From assembly GCF_050278525.1 (NCBI RefSeq), contig NZ_JBNNTG010000001.1, positions 137,850 to 169,849 of the forward strand: 32,000 nucleotides of DNA. Direction: 5' to 3'. Positions 10,324-18,838 of the stretch are shown here, in pieces. The notes under the pieces are model-generated. The model was not told the DNA's origin. It ran no database searches and saw nothing but the letters and a program-made list of their open reading frames with translations. Position 1 is the stretch's first letter, and each line of letters starts with the position of its first letter. Source of the DNA: Peribacillus sp. NPDC096540. Its GTDB lineage: Bacteria > Bacillota > Bacilli > Bacillales > DSM-1321. Both the position numbers and the translations under genes were made by a program.

Positions 10324-11547
10324 ATGATTATCAATCACAATATCTCAGCTCTAAACACGCACCGTCAATTATCAAGTGCAACGAATGCACAATCAAAATC
10401 AATGGAGAAACTTGCATCAGGTATGCGTATCAACCGTGCAGGCGATGACGCAGCCGGTCTTGCAATCTCTGAAAAAATGCGTGGACAAATCCGCGGTTTG
10501 GACCAAGCTTCCCGTAACTCCCAAGATGGAATTTCTTTAATCCAAACTGCCGAAGGCGCATTGAACGAAACTACAGACATTCTGCAACGTATGCGTGAGC
10601 TTGCTACACAAGCATCAACTGATACTAATACAACTAGTGACCGTGGAGAAATCCAAAAGGAAATGGATTCATTAACATCTGAAATTAACCGTATCGGTAA
10701 TACTACTGAATTCAATACACAGAAATTATTGAATGGTTCTAAAGACACGGCTACTCTTGCTAAAGATGCTGTTGCAGCAGAAGATGCAGTAGCTGGTGTA
10801 TATTCAATAGCTGGACCAACAGCGGATATTACAATTGATGGGAAAGACTTTGCTTATGATGCTGGTGGAGCAAAAGATTTTAAAGATGTAGATGAGTTGG
10901 TATCAGCAATAAATGCTGATACAGATTTAAAAACTAAGTACACTGCGAGTAAAGATGCAAGTGGTAAACTAGTATTAACACAGAATTCAGGTTTTGAATC
11001 AGCAACAGCACCAACAGGTGCAACATTCACAGAAGATACAGCAGGAAAAGCAGCTGTAGAGGCTAAAGATGCTGTTGAAGCTGGCTCAGGTCTTCAATTC
11101 CAAATCGGTGCAAACGAAAACCAAAGCCTGACACTTGAAATTGGTGACATGCGTGCAAGTGCTCTTGGGTTGACTGGTTCTGGTGCAGGGTTCACAACTG
11201 ATGCAAATGTAAGCAATGGTACAGATTCTAAAGGTGTTGAATCTGGCCTGGATGTTTCTAATGCTAAAAACGCATCAGCGGCTATCACAAAAATCCAAAC
11301 TGCAATTGACACAGTATCAGCTGAACGTTCTAAACTAGGTGCTAACCAAAACCGTTTAGAGCATACTATCAACAACTTAGGTACTTCTTCTGAAAACCTG
11401 ACTGCTGCTGAATCACGTATCCGTGATACAGATATGGCAAAAACAATGATGGAGCAAACTAAAAACTCTATCCTGGCGCAAGCATCACAAGCAATGTTGG
11501 CTCAAGCAAATTCCGCACCTCAAGGGGTTTTACAACTTCTAAGGTAA
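10324..11547 (+). CDS. hag: Flagellin (Hag/FliC), as read from unspliced DNA. An alternative spliced form would be join(10324..11502,11874..11918).
   Basis: MIINHNISALNTHRQL ... conserved D0/D1 N- and C-terminal helices ending QGVLQLLR, with an Ala/Thr/Asp-rich variable middle. Confidence 0.9.
   Translation: MIINHNISALNTHRQLSSATNAQSKSMEKLASGMRINRAGDDAAGLAISEKMRGQIRGLDQASRNSQDGISLIQTAEGALNETTDILQRMRELATQASTDTNTTSDRGEIQKEMDSLTSEINRIGNTTEFNTQKLLNGSKDTATLAKDAVAAEDAVAGVYSIAGPTADITIDGKDFAYDAGGAKDFKDVDELVSAINADTDLKTKYTASKDASGKLVLTQNSGFESATAPTGATFTEDTAGKAAVEAKDAVEAGSGLQFQIGANENQSLTLEIGDMRASALGLTGSGAGFTTDANVSNGTDSKGVESGLDVSNAKNASAAITKIQTAIDTVSAERSKLGANQNRLEHTINNLGTSSENLTAAESRIRDTDMAKTMMEQTKNSILAQASQAMLAQANSAPQGVLQLLR
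10759..10774 (+). repeat. 16-nt direct repeat copy 1 inside the flagellin variable region
   Basis: GCTAAAGATGCTGTTG is identical to 11062-11077. The offset is 303 nt (101 codons, in frame). Confidence 0.9.
11062..11077 (+). repeat. 16-nt direct repeat copy 2 inside the flagellin variable region
   Basis: GCTAAAGATGCTGTTG is identical to 10759-10774. Confidence 0.9.
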
Positions 11548-11873
11548 ATTTGAAGGGCGTTTTATCTAGTAATGGATAAAATTATAACTGGGTGAATTGC
11601 TGGAACTTCCTAAAGCTACATCAACCACAACGTAACTGGAAACGGTAAGCGTGAAGGTTTGAAAATGATGAAGATGATCCAATGGATAATCAGCAGCCAA
11701 GCTCCTTTGAGGAAACTCTGGAGAAGGTTCAACGACTAGGGTATACAGTCTAAGGCGAAGGCTATGACAATGAAATCCGTAGGGTGGCATAAGCCATTCG
11801 AAGTGCCCAGCCCCATAGAATAATATGGGTGAAGATATAGTCTATTCTATGTTCGAAAGACATAGTCGCGAAG
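11503..11873 (+). ncRNA. Group I intron (self-splicing ribozyme), ORF-less, IA-like. The core is certain; the splice boundaries are inferred.
   Basis: P AATTGCTGGAA at 11595-11605. Q AATCAGCAGC at 11688-11697. R GTTCAACGACTAGG at 11727-11740. S AAGATATAGTCT at 11832-11843. Supporting helices: P4 TTGCTGG/TCAGCAG; P7 GACTA/TAGTC; P3 CTGGGTG (11588-11594) with TGCCCAG (11804-11810); P8 CCCATA/TATGGG (11812-11829). P6/P6a (11702-11723) and P9 (11847-11865) both carry GAAA tetraloops. P2 is the hairpin at 11559-11582. The proposed 5' splice site follows U11502 (U.G with G11556) and the proposed omega-G is G11873. Confidence 0.8.
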
Positions 11874-11918
11874 CAAGCGAACCAACAACCACAAGGAGTT
11901 TTACAACTTCTTCGTTAA
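11874..11918 (+). other. Second copy of the flagellin 3' end (14 codons plus stop): putative 3' exon
   Basis: CAA GCG AAC CAA CAA CCA CAA GGA GTT TTA CAA CTT CTT CGT TAA encodes QANQQPQGVLQLLR*. It shares 33/45 nt and 12/14 aa with 11503-11547 and is in frame with exon 1 if joined at 11502/11874. Confidence 0.7.
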
Positions 11919-11934
11919 TTTTAGATTACTTGAA

Positions 11935-11966
11935 AGAGACTCTAGTTTTGCTAGGGTCTCTTTTGT
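11935..11966 (+). terminator. Rho-independent terminator following the second flagellin 3' end
   Basis: 11-bp stem AGAGACTCTAG / CTAGGGTCTCT (one G.U), 5-nt loop, then TTTTGT. No comparable terminator follows the first stop at 11547. Confidence 0.8.
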
Positions 11967-12304
11967 ATAGAAGGAAGCATGGAAAAAAAGTAGAGTTAAG
12001 GGTGAATGAAAATACTAGGGTGGAATCAGGATGGATAAGGCCCAACAAGATCAGAAGGAATTCCTCAAACACAGCTTAAATGGACCAAGGAACAGGTTCT
12101 TATTTTGGACGAGATGGAAGTGAAGTTATGAAATGAAAAGGATAGCAGAATATGCGAAATGAAATTGAGAGGCTAAATTGTGAACTGAATGTCCTAAAGA
12201 AAGAAGGAAATCAGTTACCCGGAACAACAGTTATATAAAGCACTCGGTTAGATAAGCATTACTATTGATAGGGTCTAGCACCTCGATACAATCACGAGGT
12301 GGAG

Positions 12305-13146
12305 TTAGTCTAGTTTTTTGATGTCTTGCCATTTGTAAGTAACTGACCAATAACTTCTTTTTAGCATCTTTGCAATTTCATTTGTTGTATAACCATTTTC
12401 TTTAAGTTGTCTTAGTAATTTAATTTCATCTTGAGAATAGGGTTTAGATCGATCTGAACTGCTGGTAAGAATCGTGTAATCAGGATACTTAGATTTCCAT
12501 CTGAGTATTTCCTTTTGATTTCGGAATTCCCAAGAGGTTTTATATAGCATAGAAGAACAAGTTTTTGCTACAGGTTCGATTAGTTTGAGGAAACGAAAAG
12601 TTTCTTTAACAGAAGTAGTTTTTAGAATATATCCATAACCATCCTTACGAGAACTCAACTTTAAGGATAAATGATATGTGGTAAATATAGTTCCTTTAGT
12701 TTCTCTAATTCGTCTTTAGGATAGCATTGAAGGTAAAGGTAAATATGCGGTGTGAGGTATATAATTCTCTTATTATGATTTATCCTAAATGAGATGCTTA
12801 ATGAGCCATCATCCATGTATAGAATAGTTAGGAAATGTGGTAAACGGCAATTTTTCACTAATGTGAAAGGGAGATGTTTAGTTCCATCTTTGCTGTAAAA
12901 GTGAGGAAATAAATTTGTGAATAATTCCAAAGAAGCGGAACGGACACATTGGCTAGCCGGAGTGATATACAATAATCCATCAAAAAAGGAAATTTTCCAT
13001 TTTCGATAATCTTCCTGAGATGTGCCGTAGTGTTCCCGGTAGCTATTGTTCTTTCTCCTGCTATTTTTATAAATTTTCGTAATTTAACCGTCACTTATAA
13101 TACTGGCATATAATATATTTTTCTGGATTTCAGTAAGATAAATCAT
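12305..13146 (-). pseudogene. Degenerate free-standing LAGLIDADG homing endonuclease gene (double-motif, C-terminal HTH)
   Basis: AAGGAGG RBS then ATG at 13146. Motif 1 is LTEIQKNILYASIISDG, followed by an in-frame TAA at 13084-13086. The same frame continues ...YREHYGTSQEDYRKWKISFF ... to motif 2, FLTILYMDDGSLS (about 12798-12836). A frameshift near 12660 leads into SSRKDGYGYILKTTSVKETFRFLKLIEP ... and an HTH-like tail DEIKLLRQLKENGYTTNEIAKML. Confidence 0.75.
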
Positions 13147-13265
13147 GAAAACCTCCTTATATAAGAGTGTATACTCTTCTTCTTAGTCCCATTCTATAAC
13201 GTTATCCCCTCCAATGGTAGAATGTTTGTTCTCTATTTAATGATAAATCCTTTGTATGTACACTG

Positions 13266-13290
13266 TAAAGTTTCATTTCAGAACCGATAT
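13266..13290 (+). promoter_or_regulatory. Possible SigD-type promoter of flaG-fliDST
   Basis: TAAA (13266-13269) and ACCGATAT (13283-13290). The spacer is 13 nt instead of 15, so the call is only tentative. Confidence 0.4.
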
Positions 13291-17479: not shown

Positions 17480-17792
17480 AACATTGGAACCATCTTGCTT
17501 TGTACATAAAATAGACAAAAACTATCATTAATTTTCTTGATTTTGTAATATTTTGTCGATAAAAAGTTGTATATTGTGGTAAATTAGCGACATAAAATAG
17601 CAATATTTGGAGTCGATATTAGCTATAATAAGATACTAAATATAGTATTTGTAATAATTACCCTGACAAAGGCAAACTTAGCGAAAGGTGAGGTCGCAAG
17701 GCATAGGTCTAAGGTTGCTTGATACTAAGATGGACTGGTCTGCTTAAAATACATACAAGTAGTATTTTAGGAGGATAAAAGAGGTGGTTTAA

Positions 17793-17924
17793 GTGAAAGT
17801 GGATCAAGAATGGGTGAAGTTGATTGCAGAAGCTAGGAAATTGGGTTTTAAGAAAGAAGAAATTAGTGCTTTTTTACAAAAAGAGAATCTTAATGTGTCA
17901 ATAGAGGAGAACAATGAAAACTAA
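17793..17924 (+). CDS. sinI: SinI-like antirepressor (43 aa); absent from the ORF track because it is under 60 aa
   Basis: GTG start 5 nt after GAGGTGG, with tandem SDs. VDQEWVKLIAEARKLGFKKEEISAFL matches the SinI/SinR oligomerisation helix motif (B. subtilis SinI has LDQEWVELMVEAKEANISPEEIRKYL, from memory). Confidence 0.65.
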   Translation: MKVDQEWVKLIAEARKLGFKKEEISAFLQKENLNVSIEENNEN

Positions 17925-18074: not shown

Positions 18075-18398
18075 CTATTCTTCTTTATCTTTTCTCCATT
18101 TATTAAACTCAATGAACTCTCTGAATTGTTGTTTAGAAACGCCAGAATTCATGGCTTCCTCAACAATTTTCATCCAGTCAGTGTCCAAGGATTCCTTATT
18201 TGGTACATCGTAAAGAAGGGCATCTACAGGAATGTTAAGTACAGCGGAGATTTTTTCAAGAAATTGAATAGAAGGATTCGTTTGTAAGTTCCGCTCGAGC
18301 GAACTTAAGTATGACTTTGCTACTCCGGCTTTATCGGCTAGTTCAGTCATTGACATTTTCTTTTCTTCTCGCAGTTTTTTTACACGTTCACCAATCAA
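18075..18398 (-). CDS. sinR: SinR-like XRE-family master regulator of biofilm/motility
   Basis: TTG start 5 nt after GAGGTGG gives MIGERVKKLREEKKMSMTELADKAGVAKSYLSSLERNLQTNPSIQFLEKISAVLNIPV ... SGVSKQQFREFIEFNKWRKDKEE. This is near-collinear with B. subtilis SinR as recalled. The 22 extra N-terminal residues in the ORF track are rejected. Confidence 0.8.
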   Translation of the reverse strand: MIGERVKKLREEKKMSMTELADKAGVAKSYLSSLERNLQTNPSIQFLEKISAVLNIPVDALLYDVPNKESLDTDWMKIVEEAMNSGVSKQQFREFIEFNKWRKDKEE

Positions 18399-18838
18399 CA
18401 ATACCACCTCGAAACATGTTCTATTTATCTTCAATTTATAAGTTTTAAACCCACATAAAATCACAGGAATAGGAAGCCTGAAAAGCTAGATTACTTCAAC
18501 TGACTATCAGTATAGAGGGACCAAAAATATCTATTAATAGAAGGTTGTGTTTAATCCGCATTTTCGTTTGTCTTGTTAAAGACTCATATGAAAAGTGGGG
18601 GAATGTGTAAGGTACTTTTGATACTTCCCTCTATTTTAACAGCTCTACCCCTCTTTTATCCATTGTTTTTCGTAAGAATTGAATTCAGGTCCATAGACAT
18701 AGAGTGACATGAAGTTGTACCTCTAGAATAGAAGTGTTAAAATTAAGCTTGGATTAGTATTAACAGAAGGTGTGTTTCTTCTTACTTATATGAATGTGTT
18801 ATTGAATGATCATTACCATAATAGAGGAGCGTTATTGA

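What the first reader, a model, noticed from the sequence alone, without database searches (positions are those of the whole stretch)
12305..13146. Decayed free-standing LAGLIDADG homing endonuclease gene, antisense, next to the ORF-less intron
On the minus strand a good RBS and ATG (13146) open a double-motif LAGLIDADG protein of about 278 aa. Motif 1 is ILYASIISDG and motif 2 is ILYMDDGSLS, and there is a C-terminal helix-turn-helix-like tail. The reading frame is broken by an in-frame TAA directly after motif 1 (13084-13086) and by a frameshift near 12660. The ORF track splits it into three pieces, one of which (12858..13094) is an out-of-frame overlap. The gene lies outside the intron, about 390 nt beyond exon 2, and is inserted between the hag terminator and the flaG promoter. 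An ORF-less intron beside a free-standing endonuclease resembles the 'collaborative homing' arrangement described in phages. The inactivating lesions fit the degeneration phase of the homing-endonuclease life cycle. If the enzyme once cut intron-less hag alleles, the whole 11.5-13.15 kb block may have moved as one unit. That could also explain the hybrid 3' end of hag.
Basis: partly seen in the sequence, partly recalled or inferred. Interest (0 to 1): 0.65.

Follow-up and report, generated by a model that had tools for sequence, protein, structure and literature searches.

The report
Dead homing endonuclease beside flagellin intron
This is a recently broken copy of a DNA-cutting "selfish" gene that in more than 70 Bacillus-like species sits directly behind the flagellin gene, next to a self-splicing intron, a conserved pairing the searched literature does not describe.

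Summary
Window 13146..12305 (minus strand) is a LAGLIDADG endonuclease gene. The repaired protein hits Pfam LAGLIDADG_2 (46 bits). It is 92-95% identical to intact 280-aa Peribacillus proteins, and an orthologue's model resembles I-SceI/I-WcaI. The rest of the gene still shows purifying selection, so the decay is recent.

The context is the more interesting result. In 70 of 73 assessable species of Bacillaceae, Planococcaceae and Exiguobacterium, this gene lies convergent to flagellin. It typically lies about 64 nt past the stop codon of exon 2, beside the same ORF-less group I intron. About a quarter of the copies are decayed. Many metagenomic introns have no endonuclease at all.

This matches the phage "collaborative homing" layout. 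However, the cleavage target is untested, and inheritance looks mostly vertical.

One feature is unexplained. The intron's first 45 nt re-encode the flagellin C-terminus in frame, so unspliced mRNA should also yield full-length flagellin.

The parts
12305..13146 (-). Pseudogene of a free-standing, I-SceI-like, double-motif LAGLIDADG endonuclease. Intact orthologues are 280 aa.
   Evidence: Translation. Pfam LAGLIDADG_2, 46 bits. Intact orthologues at 92-95% identity. Codon-level alignment.
13084..13086 (-). Nonsense codon TAA replacing GAA (Glu21), directly after motif 1.
   Evidence: All 25 aligned relatives have E or T/A at this position and none has a stop.
12689..12690 (-). Site of a 1-nt deletion (the A of codon 153, CAT) that causes a -1 frameshift. 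The shifted frame stops at 12663-12661.
   Evidence: window GGAAC-TATATTT against orthologues GGAACATATATTT.
13087..13116 (-). LAGLIDADG motif 1 (ILYASIISDG). Asp19 and Gly20 are invariant in the family.
12796..12825 (-). LAGLIDADG motif 2 (ILYMDDGSLS). Asp113 and Gly114 are invariant; Asp112 is nearly invariant.
12308..12436 (-). C-terminal three-helix, Myb/HTH-like extension. It is read in the shifted frame.
   Evidence: Weak Pfam hits, below cut-off. Helices 239-250, 255-262 and 266-279 in the AlphaFold2 model of orthologue P0001.
13152..13158 (-). Ribosome-binding site AAGGAGG, 5 nt upstream of the ATG.
   Evidence: Read directly from the sequence.
13240..13269 (-). Sigma-70-like promoter match (TTTACA-18-TATCAT). 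This is a consensus match only.
   Evidence: The number of such matches in the region is not above the shuffle expectation.
10324..11502 (+). Flagellin (hag) exon 1, ending ...ATG TTG GCT.
   Evidence: ORF list. Splice-site assignment.
11503..11873 (+). ORF-less group I intron, 371 nt. The guide sequence G11556-G57-C58 pairs with exon G11500-C01-U02. The terminal G is at 11873.
   Evidence: Rfam RF00028, 87.1 bits. Homology with the unambiguous 'site-B' flagellin intron. 57 of 89 consensus pairs carry compensatory changes. 87 of 89 pairs are intact in the window.
11503..11547 (+). The intron's first 45 nt. These are 14 in-frame codons plus TAA that re-encode the flagellin C-terminus (QANSAPQGVLQLLR*).
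   Evidence: They evolve like translated coding sequence: codon positions 1+2 at 0.90 against position 3 at 0.68.
11874..11918 (+). Flagellin exon 2 (QANQQPQGVLQLLR plus TAA).
   Evidence: An invariant G precedes CAAGC. An in-frame TAG lies just upstream in L068-L070. A hairpin across the 3' splice site covaries.
11935..11966 (.). Hairpin plus T-run between the convergent hag and endonuclease genes; probably a shared terminator.
   Evidence: Seen in the sequence. Conserved with compensatory changes across loci. Not flagged by the simple scan.
11965..12299 (.). A 335-nt stretch absent from the closest relatives. It holds a decayed copy of a small coiled-coil ORF (+ strand, about 12031-12250).

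Best explanation
SHOWN. Window 13146..12305 (minus strand) is a recently inactivated copy of a conserved, monomeric, I-SceI-like LAGLIDADG endonuclease with an extra C-terminal three-helix DNA-binding-like domain. One nonsense codon and one 1-nt deletion kill it. Its ribosome-binding site, both catalytic motifs and the rest of the coding sequence are otherwise intact.

The gene belongs to a family with a fixed home in Bacillales chromosomes. It lies just past the terminator of the flagellin gene, on the opposite strand. It is nearly always beside the same ORF-less group I intron, which interrupts flagellin 14 codons before its stop.

INFERRED. Intact family members act as free-standing homing endonucleases. 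They would cut flagellin alleles that lack the block, most likely in the conserved 3' coding sequence at or near the intron insertion site (ATGTTGGCT|CAAGCGAACCAACAACC). Repair from a block-bearing allele would then copy the intron, the 45-nt exon 2, the terminator and the endonuclease gene together. This is 'collaborative' or trans homing. The intron would protect its own allele by splitting the site.

In this strain the block is fixed and the nuclease has begun to decay, while the ribozyme persists. That is the late stage of the homing-endonuclease life cycle.
For: Identity:
- Pfam LAGLIDADG_2 at E 6.5e-12.
- 186 homologues, the best at 92-93% identity and intact at 280 aa.
- Invariant D19/G20 and D113/G114.
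- AlphaFold2 model of orthologue P0001 with pLDDT 91.5. Its best structural matches are I-WcaI and I-SceI, at Foldseek E 1e-10 and 2e-9 and target TM 0.66-0.68.
- PDB sequence hits to the same enzymes.

Lesions and their age:
- Exactly two lesions against three intact orthologues.
- 29 synonymous to 16 non-synonymous codon differences, like the intact-to-intact comparisons of 21:12 and 61:44.

Fixed context:
- The same flaG / endonuclease / intron / hag order occurs in Peribacillus, Geobacillus and Priestia.
- Of 75 species loci found through the protein, 70 hold the full intron block downstream. L082 and L083 end before the place where it would lie.
- The median spacing is 64 nt from the endonuclease stop to the exon 2 stop.
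- Rfam confirms the introns in distant genera.

Life-cycle spectrum:
- About 17-19 of 75 copies are broken by stops, frameshifts, truncation or an IS element.
- Of 44 metagenome contigs with the intron, about 10 have the family endonuclease, 4-5 have remote LAGLIDADG genes or remnants, and about 20 have none despite at least 1 kb of flank.
- The window's intron keeps 87 of 89 consensus pairs.

Target plausibility:
- Third-codon positions are unusually conserved around the exon junction: 0.84 and 0.78, against 0.68 elsewhere.
- The two intact endonuclease genes that lie next to intron-less flagellins (L037, L055-A) face diverged junction sequences.
Against: - No cleavage site is known, and nothing here tests it.
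- Endonuclease identity tracks identity of the neighbouring FliD (Spearman 0.66) and of the intron (0.66). No pair suggests recent inter-genus transfer, so mobility is not demonstrated.
- The family is about 75% intact and more conserved than FliD (median 51% against 38%). That is more persistence than simple selfish-element theory predicts.
- In L059 and L061 an intact endonuclease coexists with an exon 1 / intron junction that differs from the presumed target at only about 2 of 22 central positions. This sits uneasily with a target centred exactly on the junction.
- The raised synonymous-site conservation could instead reflect RNA constraints (P1 and the 3' splice-site hairpin).
- No relatives were found in phage genomes, and only one distant hit in viral contigs.
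Confidence: 0.6

Rival explanations
1. The endonuclease family is mobile on its own and unrelated in function to the intron. On this view its target lies elsewhere. One possibility is the hag terminator / hag-flaG intergenic region. Another is exon 2 of alleles that already carry the intron. The pairing would then arise only because both elements favour the conserved flagellin 3' end.
For: - The intron is often found without the endonuclease.
- Intact endonucleases occur next to intron-less flagellins (L037, L055-A) and once with no flagellin at all (L040).
- The gene is always inserted right after the conserved terminator, which is also present in endonuclease-less alleles.
- The near-cognate exon 1 / intron junctions in L059 and L061 argue against a junction-centred site.
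Against: - Intergenic sequence is poorly conserved across genera, which makes it a poor long-term target.
- 70 of 73 assessable endonuclease loci have the intron.
- The layout copies the documented phage cases, in which the nuclease gene lies just downstream of the intron-bearing gene (review PMC3984707).
Confidence: 0.2
2. The family has been domesticated. The LAGLIDADG protein, with its added HTH-like domain, would serve the host or the intron, for example as a splicing helper (maturase) or as a regulator or recombination driver at the flagellin locus. The window copy would simply be a loss in one strain.
For: - Long, mostly vertical persistence.
- About 75% of copies are intact across families.
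- The protein is more conserved than FliD.
- LAGLIDADG maturases are an established precedent: the I-AniI and bI3 structures are among the fold matches.
- The ribozyme is under strong selection although splicing seems dispensable for making full-length flagellin.
Against: - The catalytic acidic residues of both motifs are invariant, as expected for an active nuclease.
- A quarter of copies are decayed, and many lineages keep the intron without the gene. The gene is therefore dispensable.
- Related flagellin introns are reported to self-splice in vitro (Hayakawa and Ishizuka 2009, 2012, as cited in PMC3984707 and PMC4853749).
Confidence: 0.15
3. The two lesions are sequencing or assembly errors, and the gene is intact in the organism.
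For: Only two single-base differences separate it from an open frame. The rest of the gene shows no relaxed constraint.
Against: - One lesion is a substitution and the other a deletion outside any homopolymer run. Two independent errors in 842 nt would be unusual.
- None of the fragment ORFs is recorded as a protein, whereas the adjacent flagellin is. That fits the region being treated as a pseudogene in the source record.
- Decay is common in this family.
Confidence: 0.05

Closest known systems
[quoted passage not shown] Examples are F-CphI with the psbA intron of cyanophage S-PM2 (Zeng et al. 2009) and the T7-like phage DNA polymerase intron case (Bonocora and Shub 2009), both as summarised in PMC3984707.
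   Same: - An ORF-less self-splicing intron sits in a highly conserved coding sequence.
- The endonuclease gene is outside the intron, immediately downstream of the interrupted gene.
- The pairing recurs in many genomes.
   Different: - It is chromosomal in free-living Bacillales, not in phage.
- The enzyme is a LAGLIDADG; F-CphI is an Endo VII-like enzyme (PMC6083498, listed).
- The gene is convergent with its neighbour.
- The target is untested.
- Inheritance is mostly vertical.
- The intron carries an in-frame substitute C-terminus.
I-SceI and I-WcaI, monomeric double-motif LAGLIDADG homing endonucleases (PDB 1R7M, 6X1J)
   Same: - Same Pfam family (LAGLIDADG_2).
- They are the best sequence and fold matches.
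- Both catalytic motifs are conserved.
   Different: - Those enzymes are encoded inside mitochondrial rRNA group I introns, whereas this one is free-standing.
- Identity is only about 18-19%.
- This family has an extra C-terminal three-helix domain of about 45 aa.
- The window copy is broken.
Group I (IA2) self-splicing introns in flagellin genes of thermophilic Bacillus/Geobacillus (Hayakawa and Ishizuka 2009, 2012). The papers were not readable here and are cited through PMC3984707 and PMC4853749.
   Same: - Same host gene.
- The 'site-B' intron found here, 37 codons before the stop in Geobacillus and many others, is a paralogue of the window's terminal intron.
   Different: - The window's intron sits at a different site, 14 codons before the stop.
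- It contains an in-frame replacement C-terminus.
- I found no mention of a partner endonuclease in the accessible literature.
edn1/edn2 LAGLIDADG genes noted in the flaA2-flaG region of Geobacillus (De Maayer and Cowan 2016, PMC5109656)
   Same: Same protein family and same locus. P0027 from Geobacillus sp. C56-T3 and JF8 is in my set.
   Different: That paper treats the gene as a hallmark of horizontal transfer of the glycosylation island. It does not mention any intron (0 occurrences).
Mitochondrial free-standing or 3'-terminal homing endonuclease gene insertions that bring a duplicate of the host gene's 3' end. This is recalled from my own knowledge of fungal mitochondrial genomes and was not checked here.
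   Same: The last codons of the host gene are present twice, so the host protein stays complete despite the insertion.
   Different: Here the two copies flank a ribozyme core. One copy lies inside the intron, and the endonuclease is on the other strand beyond a terminator.

Membership tests
LAGLIDADG homing endonuclease (Pfam LAGLIDADG_2, I-SceI-like monomer) | Profile match above the curated threshold | tested here: met
   PF03161 at 46.2 bits against a cut-off of 25 for the repaired window protein. 53.1 bits for orthologue P0001.
LAGLIDADG homing endonuclease (Pfam LAGLIDADG_2, I-SceI-like monomer) | Two LAGLIDADG helices, each ending in a catalytic acidic residue | tested here: met
   ILYASIISDG and ILYMDDGSLS are present in the window. 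D19/G20 and D113/G114 are invariant in 43 relatives.
LAGLIDADG homing endonuclease (Pfam LAGLIDADG_2, I-SceI-like monomer) | Pseudo-dimeric alpha-beta-beta-alpha-beta-beta-alpha fold | tested here: met
   The model of orthologue P0001 has pLDDT 91.5. Top Foldseek hits are I-WcaI and I-SceI, at E 1e-10 and 2e-9. This was tested on the orthologue, not on the broken window copy.
LAGLIDADG homing endonuclease (Pfam LAGLIDADG_2, I-SceI-like monomer) | Intact open reading frame | tested here: not met
   TAA at codon 21 and a -1 frameshift at codon 153. The window copy is a pseudogene of the family.
LAGLIDADG homing endonuclease (Pfam LAGLIDADG_2, I-SceI-like monomer) | Site-specific cleavage of a long (about 18-22 bp) DNA target | not testable with these tools
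   Needs enzyme assays with an intact orthologue.
Collaborative (trans) homing pair: free-standing endonuclease plus ORF-less group I intron | ORF-less group I intron in a conserved gene | tested here: met
   Rfam RF00028 at 87 bits. No ORF in the 371-nt intron apart from the 14-codon read-through. 57 of 89 pairs are compensatory. Splicing itself was not tested.
Collaborative (trans) homing pair: free-standing endonuclease plus ORF-less group I intron | Endonuclease gene outside the intron but adjacent to the interrupted gene, recurrently | tested here: met
   70 of 73 assessable species loci. Median spacing 64 nt.
Collaborative (trans) homing pair: free-standing endonuclease plus ORF-less group I intron | The endonuclease cuts intron-less alleles at or near the intron insertion site, and intron-bearing alleles are immune | not testable with these tools
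   Only indirect hints. Synonymous-site conservation at the junction and diverged junctions in L037 and L055-A point towards it. Near-cognate junctions in L059 and L061 point against it.
Collaborative (trans) homing pair: free-standing endonuclease plus ORF-less group I intron | Evidence of joint horizontal spread | tested here: inconclusive
   The endonuclease and intron co-diverge (rho 0.66), but both also track FliD (0.66 and 0.39). No clear inter-genus transfer is seen. Within-species polymorphism was not sampled.
Degenerating stage of the homing-endonuclease life cycle (Goddard-Burt model) | Inactivating lesions relative to intact orthologues, with intact, decayed and absent states coexisting among lineages | tested here: met
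Group I intron (Rfam RF00028) | U.G pair at the 5' splice site, terminal G, and a conserved P3-P9 core | tested here: met
   U11502.G11556 and G11873 are invariant across 75 copies. Core covariation. The splice sites were assigned by homology and reading frame, not by RNA data.

The most novel reading that the evidence does not exclude
The block may not be a transient parasite. It could be an ancient, vertically kept module of the Bacillales flagellin locus.

On this reading the ribozyme chooses between two flagellin C-termini. The unspliced mRNA would end with the intron-encoded 14 residues. The spliced mRNA would end with the exon 2 version.

The LAGLIDADG-HTH protein would be retained because it does something for the host or the locus. 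Candidates are driving flagellin allele exchange, helping splicing, or regulating expression.
Probability: 0.15. Interest if true: 0.8.

Novelty: new variant of a known kind. Interest (0 to 1): 0.6.

Why it matters
Collaborative homing has been proposed as the route by which endonuclease genes and introns first come together. So far it has been documented in a handful of phages.

This pairing is chromosomal and LAGLIDADG-based, recurs in more than 70 species, and is seen here in every stage from intact to decayed to lost. It would therefore be a large natural series in which that hypothesis, and the endonuclease life-cycle model, can be tested directly.

Flagellin is a major antigen and a highly expressed gene. 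A nuclease that promotes gene conversion at its 3' end could shape flagellin diversity.

The intron's built-in replacement C-terminus may be a new way for an intron to be harmless in a translated bacterial gene. That idea is easy to test by RT-PCR and mass spectrometry.

The enzymes are also a source of new I-SceI-like specificities.

Tried and rejected
1. Rfam's own P1 placement put the 5' splice site inside the read-through codons, near 11538. I rejected it. The pairing has mismatches and is not conserved in other genera. It also gives no in-frame product with any G-preceded 3' site.

2. A 5' splice site after U11498 (AUGUU paired with GGCGU) was also rejected, for the same frame reason.

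3. Testing the P1 extension (intron CAAUC with GAUUG) by a shuffle control gave only modest support: 14 of 71 loci with at least 5 bp, against a shuffled mean of 3.1 and a maximum of 8. I do not lean on it.

4. Phage origin was checked. tblastn against 50,697 phage records found nothing. IMG/VR gave one 27%-identical hit.

5. I looked for the pseudogene fragments as recorded proteins, to see whether other assemblies share the lesions. None is on record, so this was uninformative.

6. Hayakawa and Ishizuka's papers could not be read.

7. I looked for uninterrupted exon 1 / exon 2 junctions in loci with an intact endonuclease. Only exon 1 / intron junctions matched. This neither proves nor excludes the target hypothesis.

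8. I did not build a custom covariance model, because a 370-nt model would exceed the calibration limit. nhmmer plus Rfam sufficed.
Full report
**The observation**

On the minus strand, an AAGGAGG ribosome-binding site (13158-13152) precedes an ATG at 13146. The frame reads MIYLTEIQKNILYASIISDG and then hits TAA at 13086-13084. It resumes in the same frame through ILYMDDGSLS (12825-12796) and stops at 12663-12661. The last 117 residues continue in a different frame to the stop at 12307-12305.

With the two lesions conceptually repaired, the 280-aa protein matches Pfam LAGLIDADG_2 (PF03161) at E 6.5e-12 and 46.2 bits, against a cut-off of 25. It finds 186 homologues. The best are intact 280-aa 'DNA endonuclease' proteins of Peribacillus at 92-93% identity and E about 1e-169.

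A codon-level DNA alignment with three intact orthologues shows exactly two inactivating changes. One is GAA->TAA at codon 21. The other is loss of the A of CAT (codon 153), between window 12690 and 12689.

Apart from these lesions, the gene differs from its closest intact relative by 29 synonymous and 16 non-synonymous codons. Two intact-to-intact comparisons give similar ratios, 21:12 and 61:44. The gene evolved under purifying selection until recently.

**What kind of protein it is**

Both catalytic motifs are invariant in the family: D19/G20 and D113/G114.

An AlphaFold2 model of orthologue P0001 is confident, with mean pLDDT 91.5. Its best structural matches are the monomeric enzymes I-WcaI and I-SceI, at Foldseek E 1e-10 and 2e-9 and target-normalised TM 0.66-0.68. 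These are also the only sequence-level PDB hits.

Residues 239-279 form an added three-helix unit. It scores only weakly against Myb-like and HTH profiles, below their cut-offs, so 'HTH-like tail' is reasonable but not proven.

An exhaustive profile search found 49 cluster representatives at E <= 1e-30 and 180 at E <= 1e-10. No relative was found in 50,697 phage genomes, and only one distant hit (27% identity) in IMG/VR. This is a chromosomal family.

**The neighbourhood in the window**

The flagellin ORF is 10324..11547. Rfam finds a group I intron at 11529..11865 at 87.1 bits.

The sequence holds two versions of the flagellin C-terminus:
- QANSAPQGVLQLLR*, in frame with hag, at 11503-11547.
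- QANQQPQGVLQLLR*, after the ribozyme core, at 11874-11918.

A conserved hairpin with a T-run follows at 11935-11966. Next comes a 335-nt stretch that the closest relatives lack. Then comes the endonuclease stop codon.

**A fixed partnership across species**

Intact orthologues in Peribacillus, Geobacillus and Priestia sit in the same place: between flaG and a convergent flagellin gene.

A scan of one genome per species returned 75 true relatives. They come from Bacillaceae, Planococcaceae, Exiguobacterium and a Sporolactobacillus. tblastn shows a convergent flagellin gene just downstream in nearly all of them.

An nhmmer search with window 11500-11925 finds the whole block in 70 of the 75. 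The block is exon 1 end, read-through codons, ribozyme, and exon 2. L082 and L083 stop at a contig end before the place where the intron would lie, so they cannot be assessed. The three real exceptions are:
- L037, which has an intron-less flagellin;
- L040, which has no flagellin;
- L081, which holds only an endonuclease fragment.

The median distance from the endonuclease stop to the exon 2 stop is 64 nt, and 50 of 68 loci are at 150 nt or less. Rfam independently confirms the introns in distant genera.

**Splice sites**

Many loci hold a second, paralogous intron 37 codons before the flagellin stop ('site B'). Its exons are unambiguous...GAC GTN GAT | intron | ATG GCG AAA. Its P1 helix shows clear covariation.

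Mapping its guide sequence onto the terminal intron gives the pairs G11500-C11558, C11501-G11557 and U11502.G11556. The 5' splice site therefore follows GCT at 11502. That GCT is invariant, including its third position, in all copies except one degenerate one.

At the 3' end an invariant G (11873) precedes CAAGC. The frame just upstream holds TAG in three Exiguobacterium loci, so exon 2 must start exactly at CAA. A small hairpin across this site covaries, TCGC...GCGA against GGC...GCC.

The intron is therefore 11503..11873. The spliced message reads ...AMLA|QANQQPQGVLQLLR*.

I rejected Rfam's placement of P1 inside the read-through codons. It is mismatched, it is not conserved, and it yields no in-frame product.

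**The ribozyme is functional RNA**

In 40 diverse copies, 57 of 89 consensus base pairs show changes on both sides that keep the pair. The window's copy keeps 87 of 89 pairs. This is the same as relatives whose endonuclease is intact. Only the protein gene has decayed.

**An unexpected feature**

In every copy seen, the first 45 nt of the intron continue the flagellin frame. They encode a full replacement for the last 14 residues plus a stop. In most genera this is QSNQMPQGVLQLLR*.

These codons evolve like translated sequence. The majority-base frequency is 0.90 at codon positions 1+2 and 0.68 at position 3. That is the same as ordinary upstream flagellin codons, at 0.91 and 0.68.

Unspliced mRNA should therefore also give full-length flagellin. 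The 'hybrid 3' end of hag' is a conserved design of this intron, not a scar of a recent event. Why the ribozyme is nevertheless so well conserved is unexplained.

**Life-cycle spectrum**

Among the 75 species copies, about 17-19 are broken:
- single stops: L013, L018, L028, L044;
- frameshifts: L060, L074, L075, L076, L080;
- multiple lesions: L072, L073, L077, L079;
- N-terminal truncation: L063, L064;
- fragments: L081, L083;
- an IS insertion: L052.

A metagenome scan for the intron's 3' end plus exon 2 gave 44 contigs:
- about 10 have the family endonuclease downstream;
- 4-5 have a remote LAGLIDADG gene or remnants;
- about 20 have none despite at least 1 kb of flank.

Intact, decaying and lost states thus coexist. 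The window is an early-decay case.

**Does the enzyme target the intron site?**

This is inference only.

In favour:
- The layout copies the phage 'collaborative homing' cases reviewed in PMC3984707.
- Third-codon positions are unusually conserved in the last 10 codons of exon 1 (0.84) and in exon 2 (0.78 overall, and about 0.9 in its first seven codons except the GCN wobble, which covaries with the hairpin).
- The two intact endonucleases that face intron-less flagellins (L037, L055-A) face diverged junctions.

Against or neutral:
- The same conservation could be due to RNA pairing.
- L059 and L061 combine an intact endonuclease with an exon 1 / intron junction that differs from the presumed site at only about two central positions.
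- Over 406 locus pairs, endonuclease identity tracks FliD identity (Spearman 0.66) and intron identity (0.66). No pair suggests recent inter-genus transfer.
- The family is better conserved than FliD (median 51% against 38%).

Descent is therefore mostly vertical. Homing, if it occurs, is within populations. A host-serving role cannot be excluded.

**Literature**

The accessible library contains:
- the flagellin group I introns of thermophilic bacilli (Hayakawa and Ishizuka 2009, 2012, cited in PMC3984707 and PMC4853749; the originals are not held);
- a comparative study that noted LAGLIDADG 'edn1/edn2' genes in the Geobacillus flaA2-flaG region without mentioning any intron (PMC5109656).

Four searches found no paper that links the two elements, describes the terminal intron, or describes its in-frame C-terminus. 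Subscription journals are not covered, so this absence is provisional.

**Verdict**

The finding is real and correctly read. The window holds a recently dead member of a conserved, uncharacterised family of I-SceI-like free-standing endonucleases. [quoted passage not shown]

I rate it a new variant of a known kind: collaborative-homing-like, but chromosomal, LAGLIDADG-based and ancient. Interest is moderate to high. It rests on the family-wide pattern rather than on the single pseudogene.

Noticed in passing
window 11503..11547: The group I intron begins with 14 in-frame codons plus a stop that re-encode the flagellin C-terminus. This is conserved at protein level in every copy examined, so unspliced mRNA should also give full-length flagellin.
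   Followed up: partly
window 17661..17924: A c-di-GMP-I riboswitch (17661-17746, Rfam 47 bits) lies 47 nt upstream of a 43-aa SinI-like ORF (17793-17924). A SinR-like HTH gene is convergent at 18075-18464. The same arrangement occurs in L001 and L004.
   Followed up: partly
window 11965..12299 (ORF remnant about 12031..12250, + strand): A 335-nt stretch absent from the closest relatives (L004, L001, L009). It holds a frameshifted copy of a 79-aa coiled-coil ORF that is intact in L010 5231..5470. This is a second pseudogene between hag and flaG.
   Followed up: partly
L023 5905..7699; L026 6091..7924: Up to three group I introns in a single flagellin gene: one in the N-terminal domain, 'site B' 37 codons before the stop, and the terminal site. 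Site B and the terminal intron are paralogues, separated by a 69-nt exon that is nearly identical across genera.
   Followed up: partly
L107 4559..5578 (-) and L114 1154..2074 (-), coordinates after orienting each contig so that flagellin is on the + strand: A different, only remotely related LAGLIDADG ORF (339 and 306 aa) occupies the same convergent position after the terminal intron in some metagenome contigs.
   Followed up: no
P0127, P0128, P0129 (570-593 aa): Proteins that are tandem fusions of two LAGLIDADG_2 enzymes. The C-terminal half belongs to this family.
   Followed up: no
L052 4636..6005: In Geobacillus icigianus the endonuclease gene is split by an insertion that encodes a 407-aa transposase-like protein.
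   Followed up: no
L055 3983..8346: Metabacillus malikii has an intact endonuclease next to an intron-less flagellin that ends with the intron-type C-terminus (QSNQMPQGVLQLLR*). A second flagellin just upstream carries both the terminal and site-B introns.
   Followed up: partly
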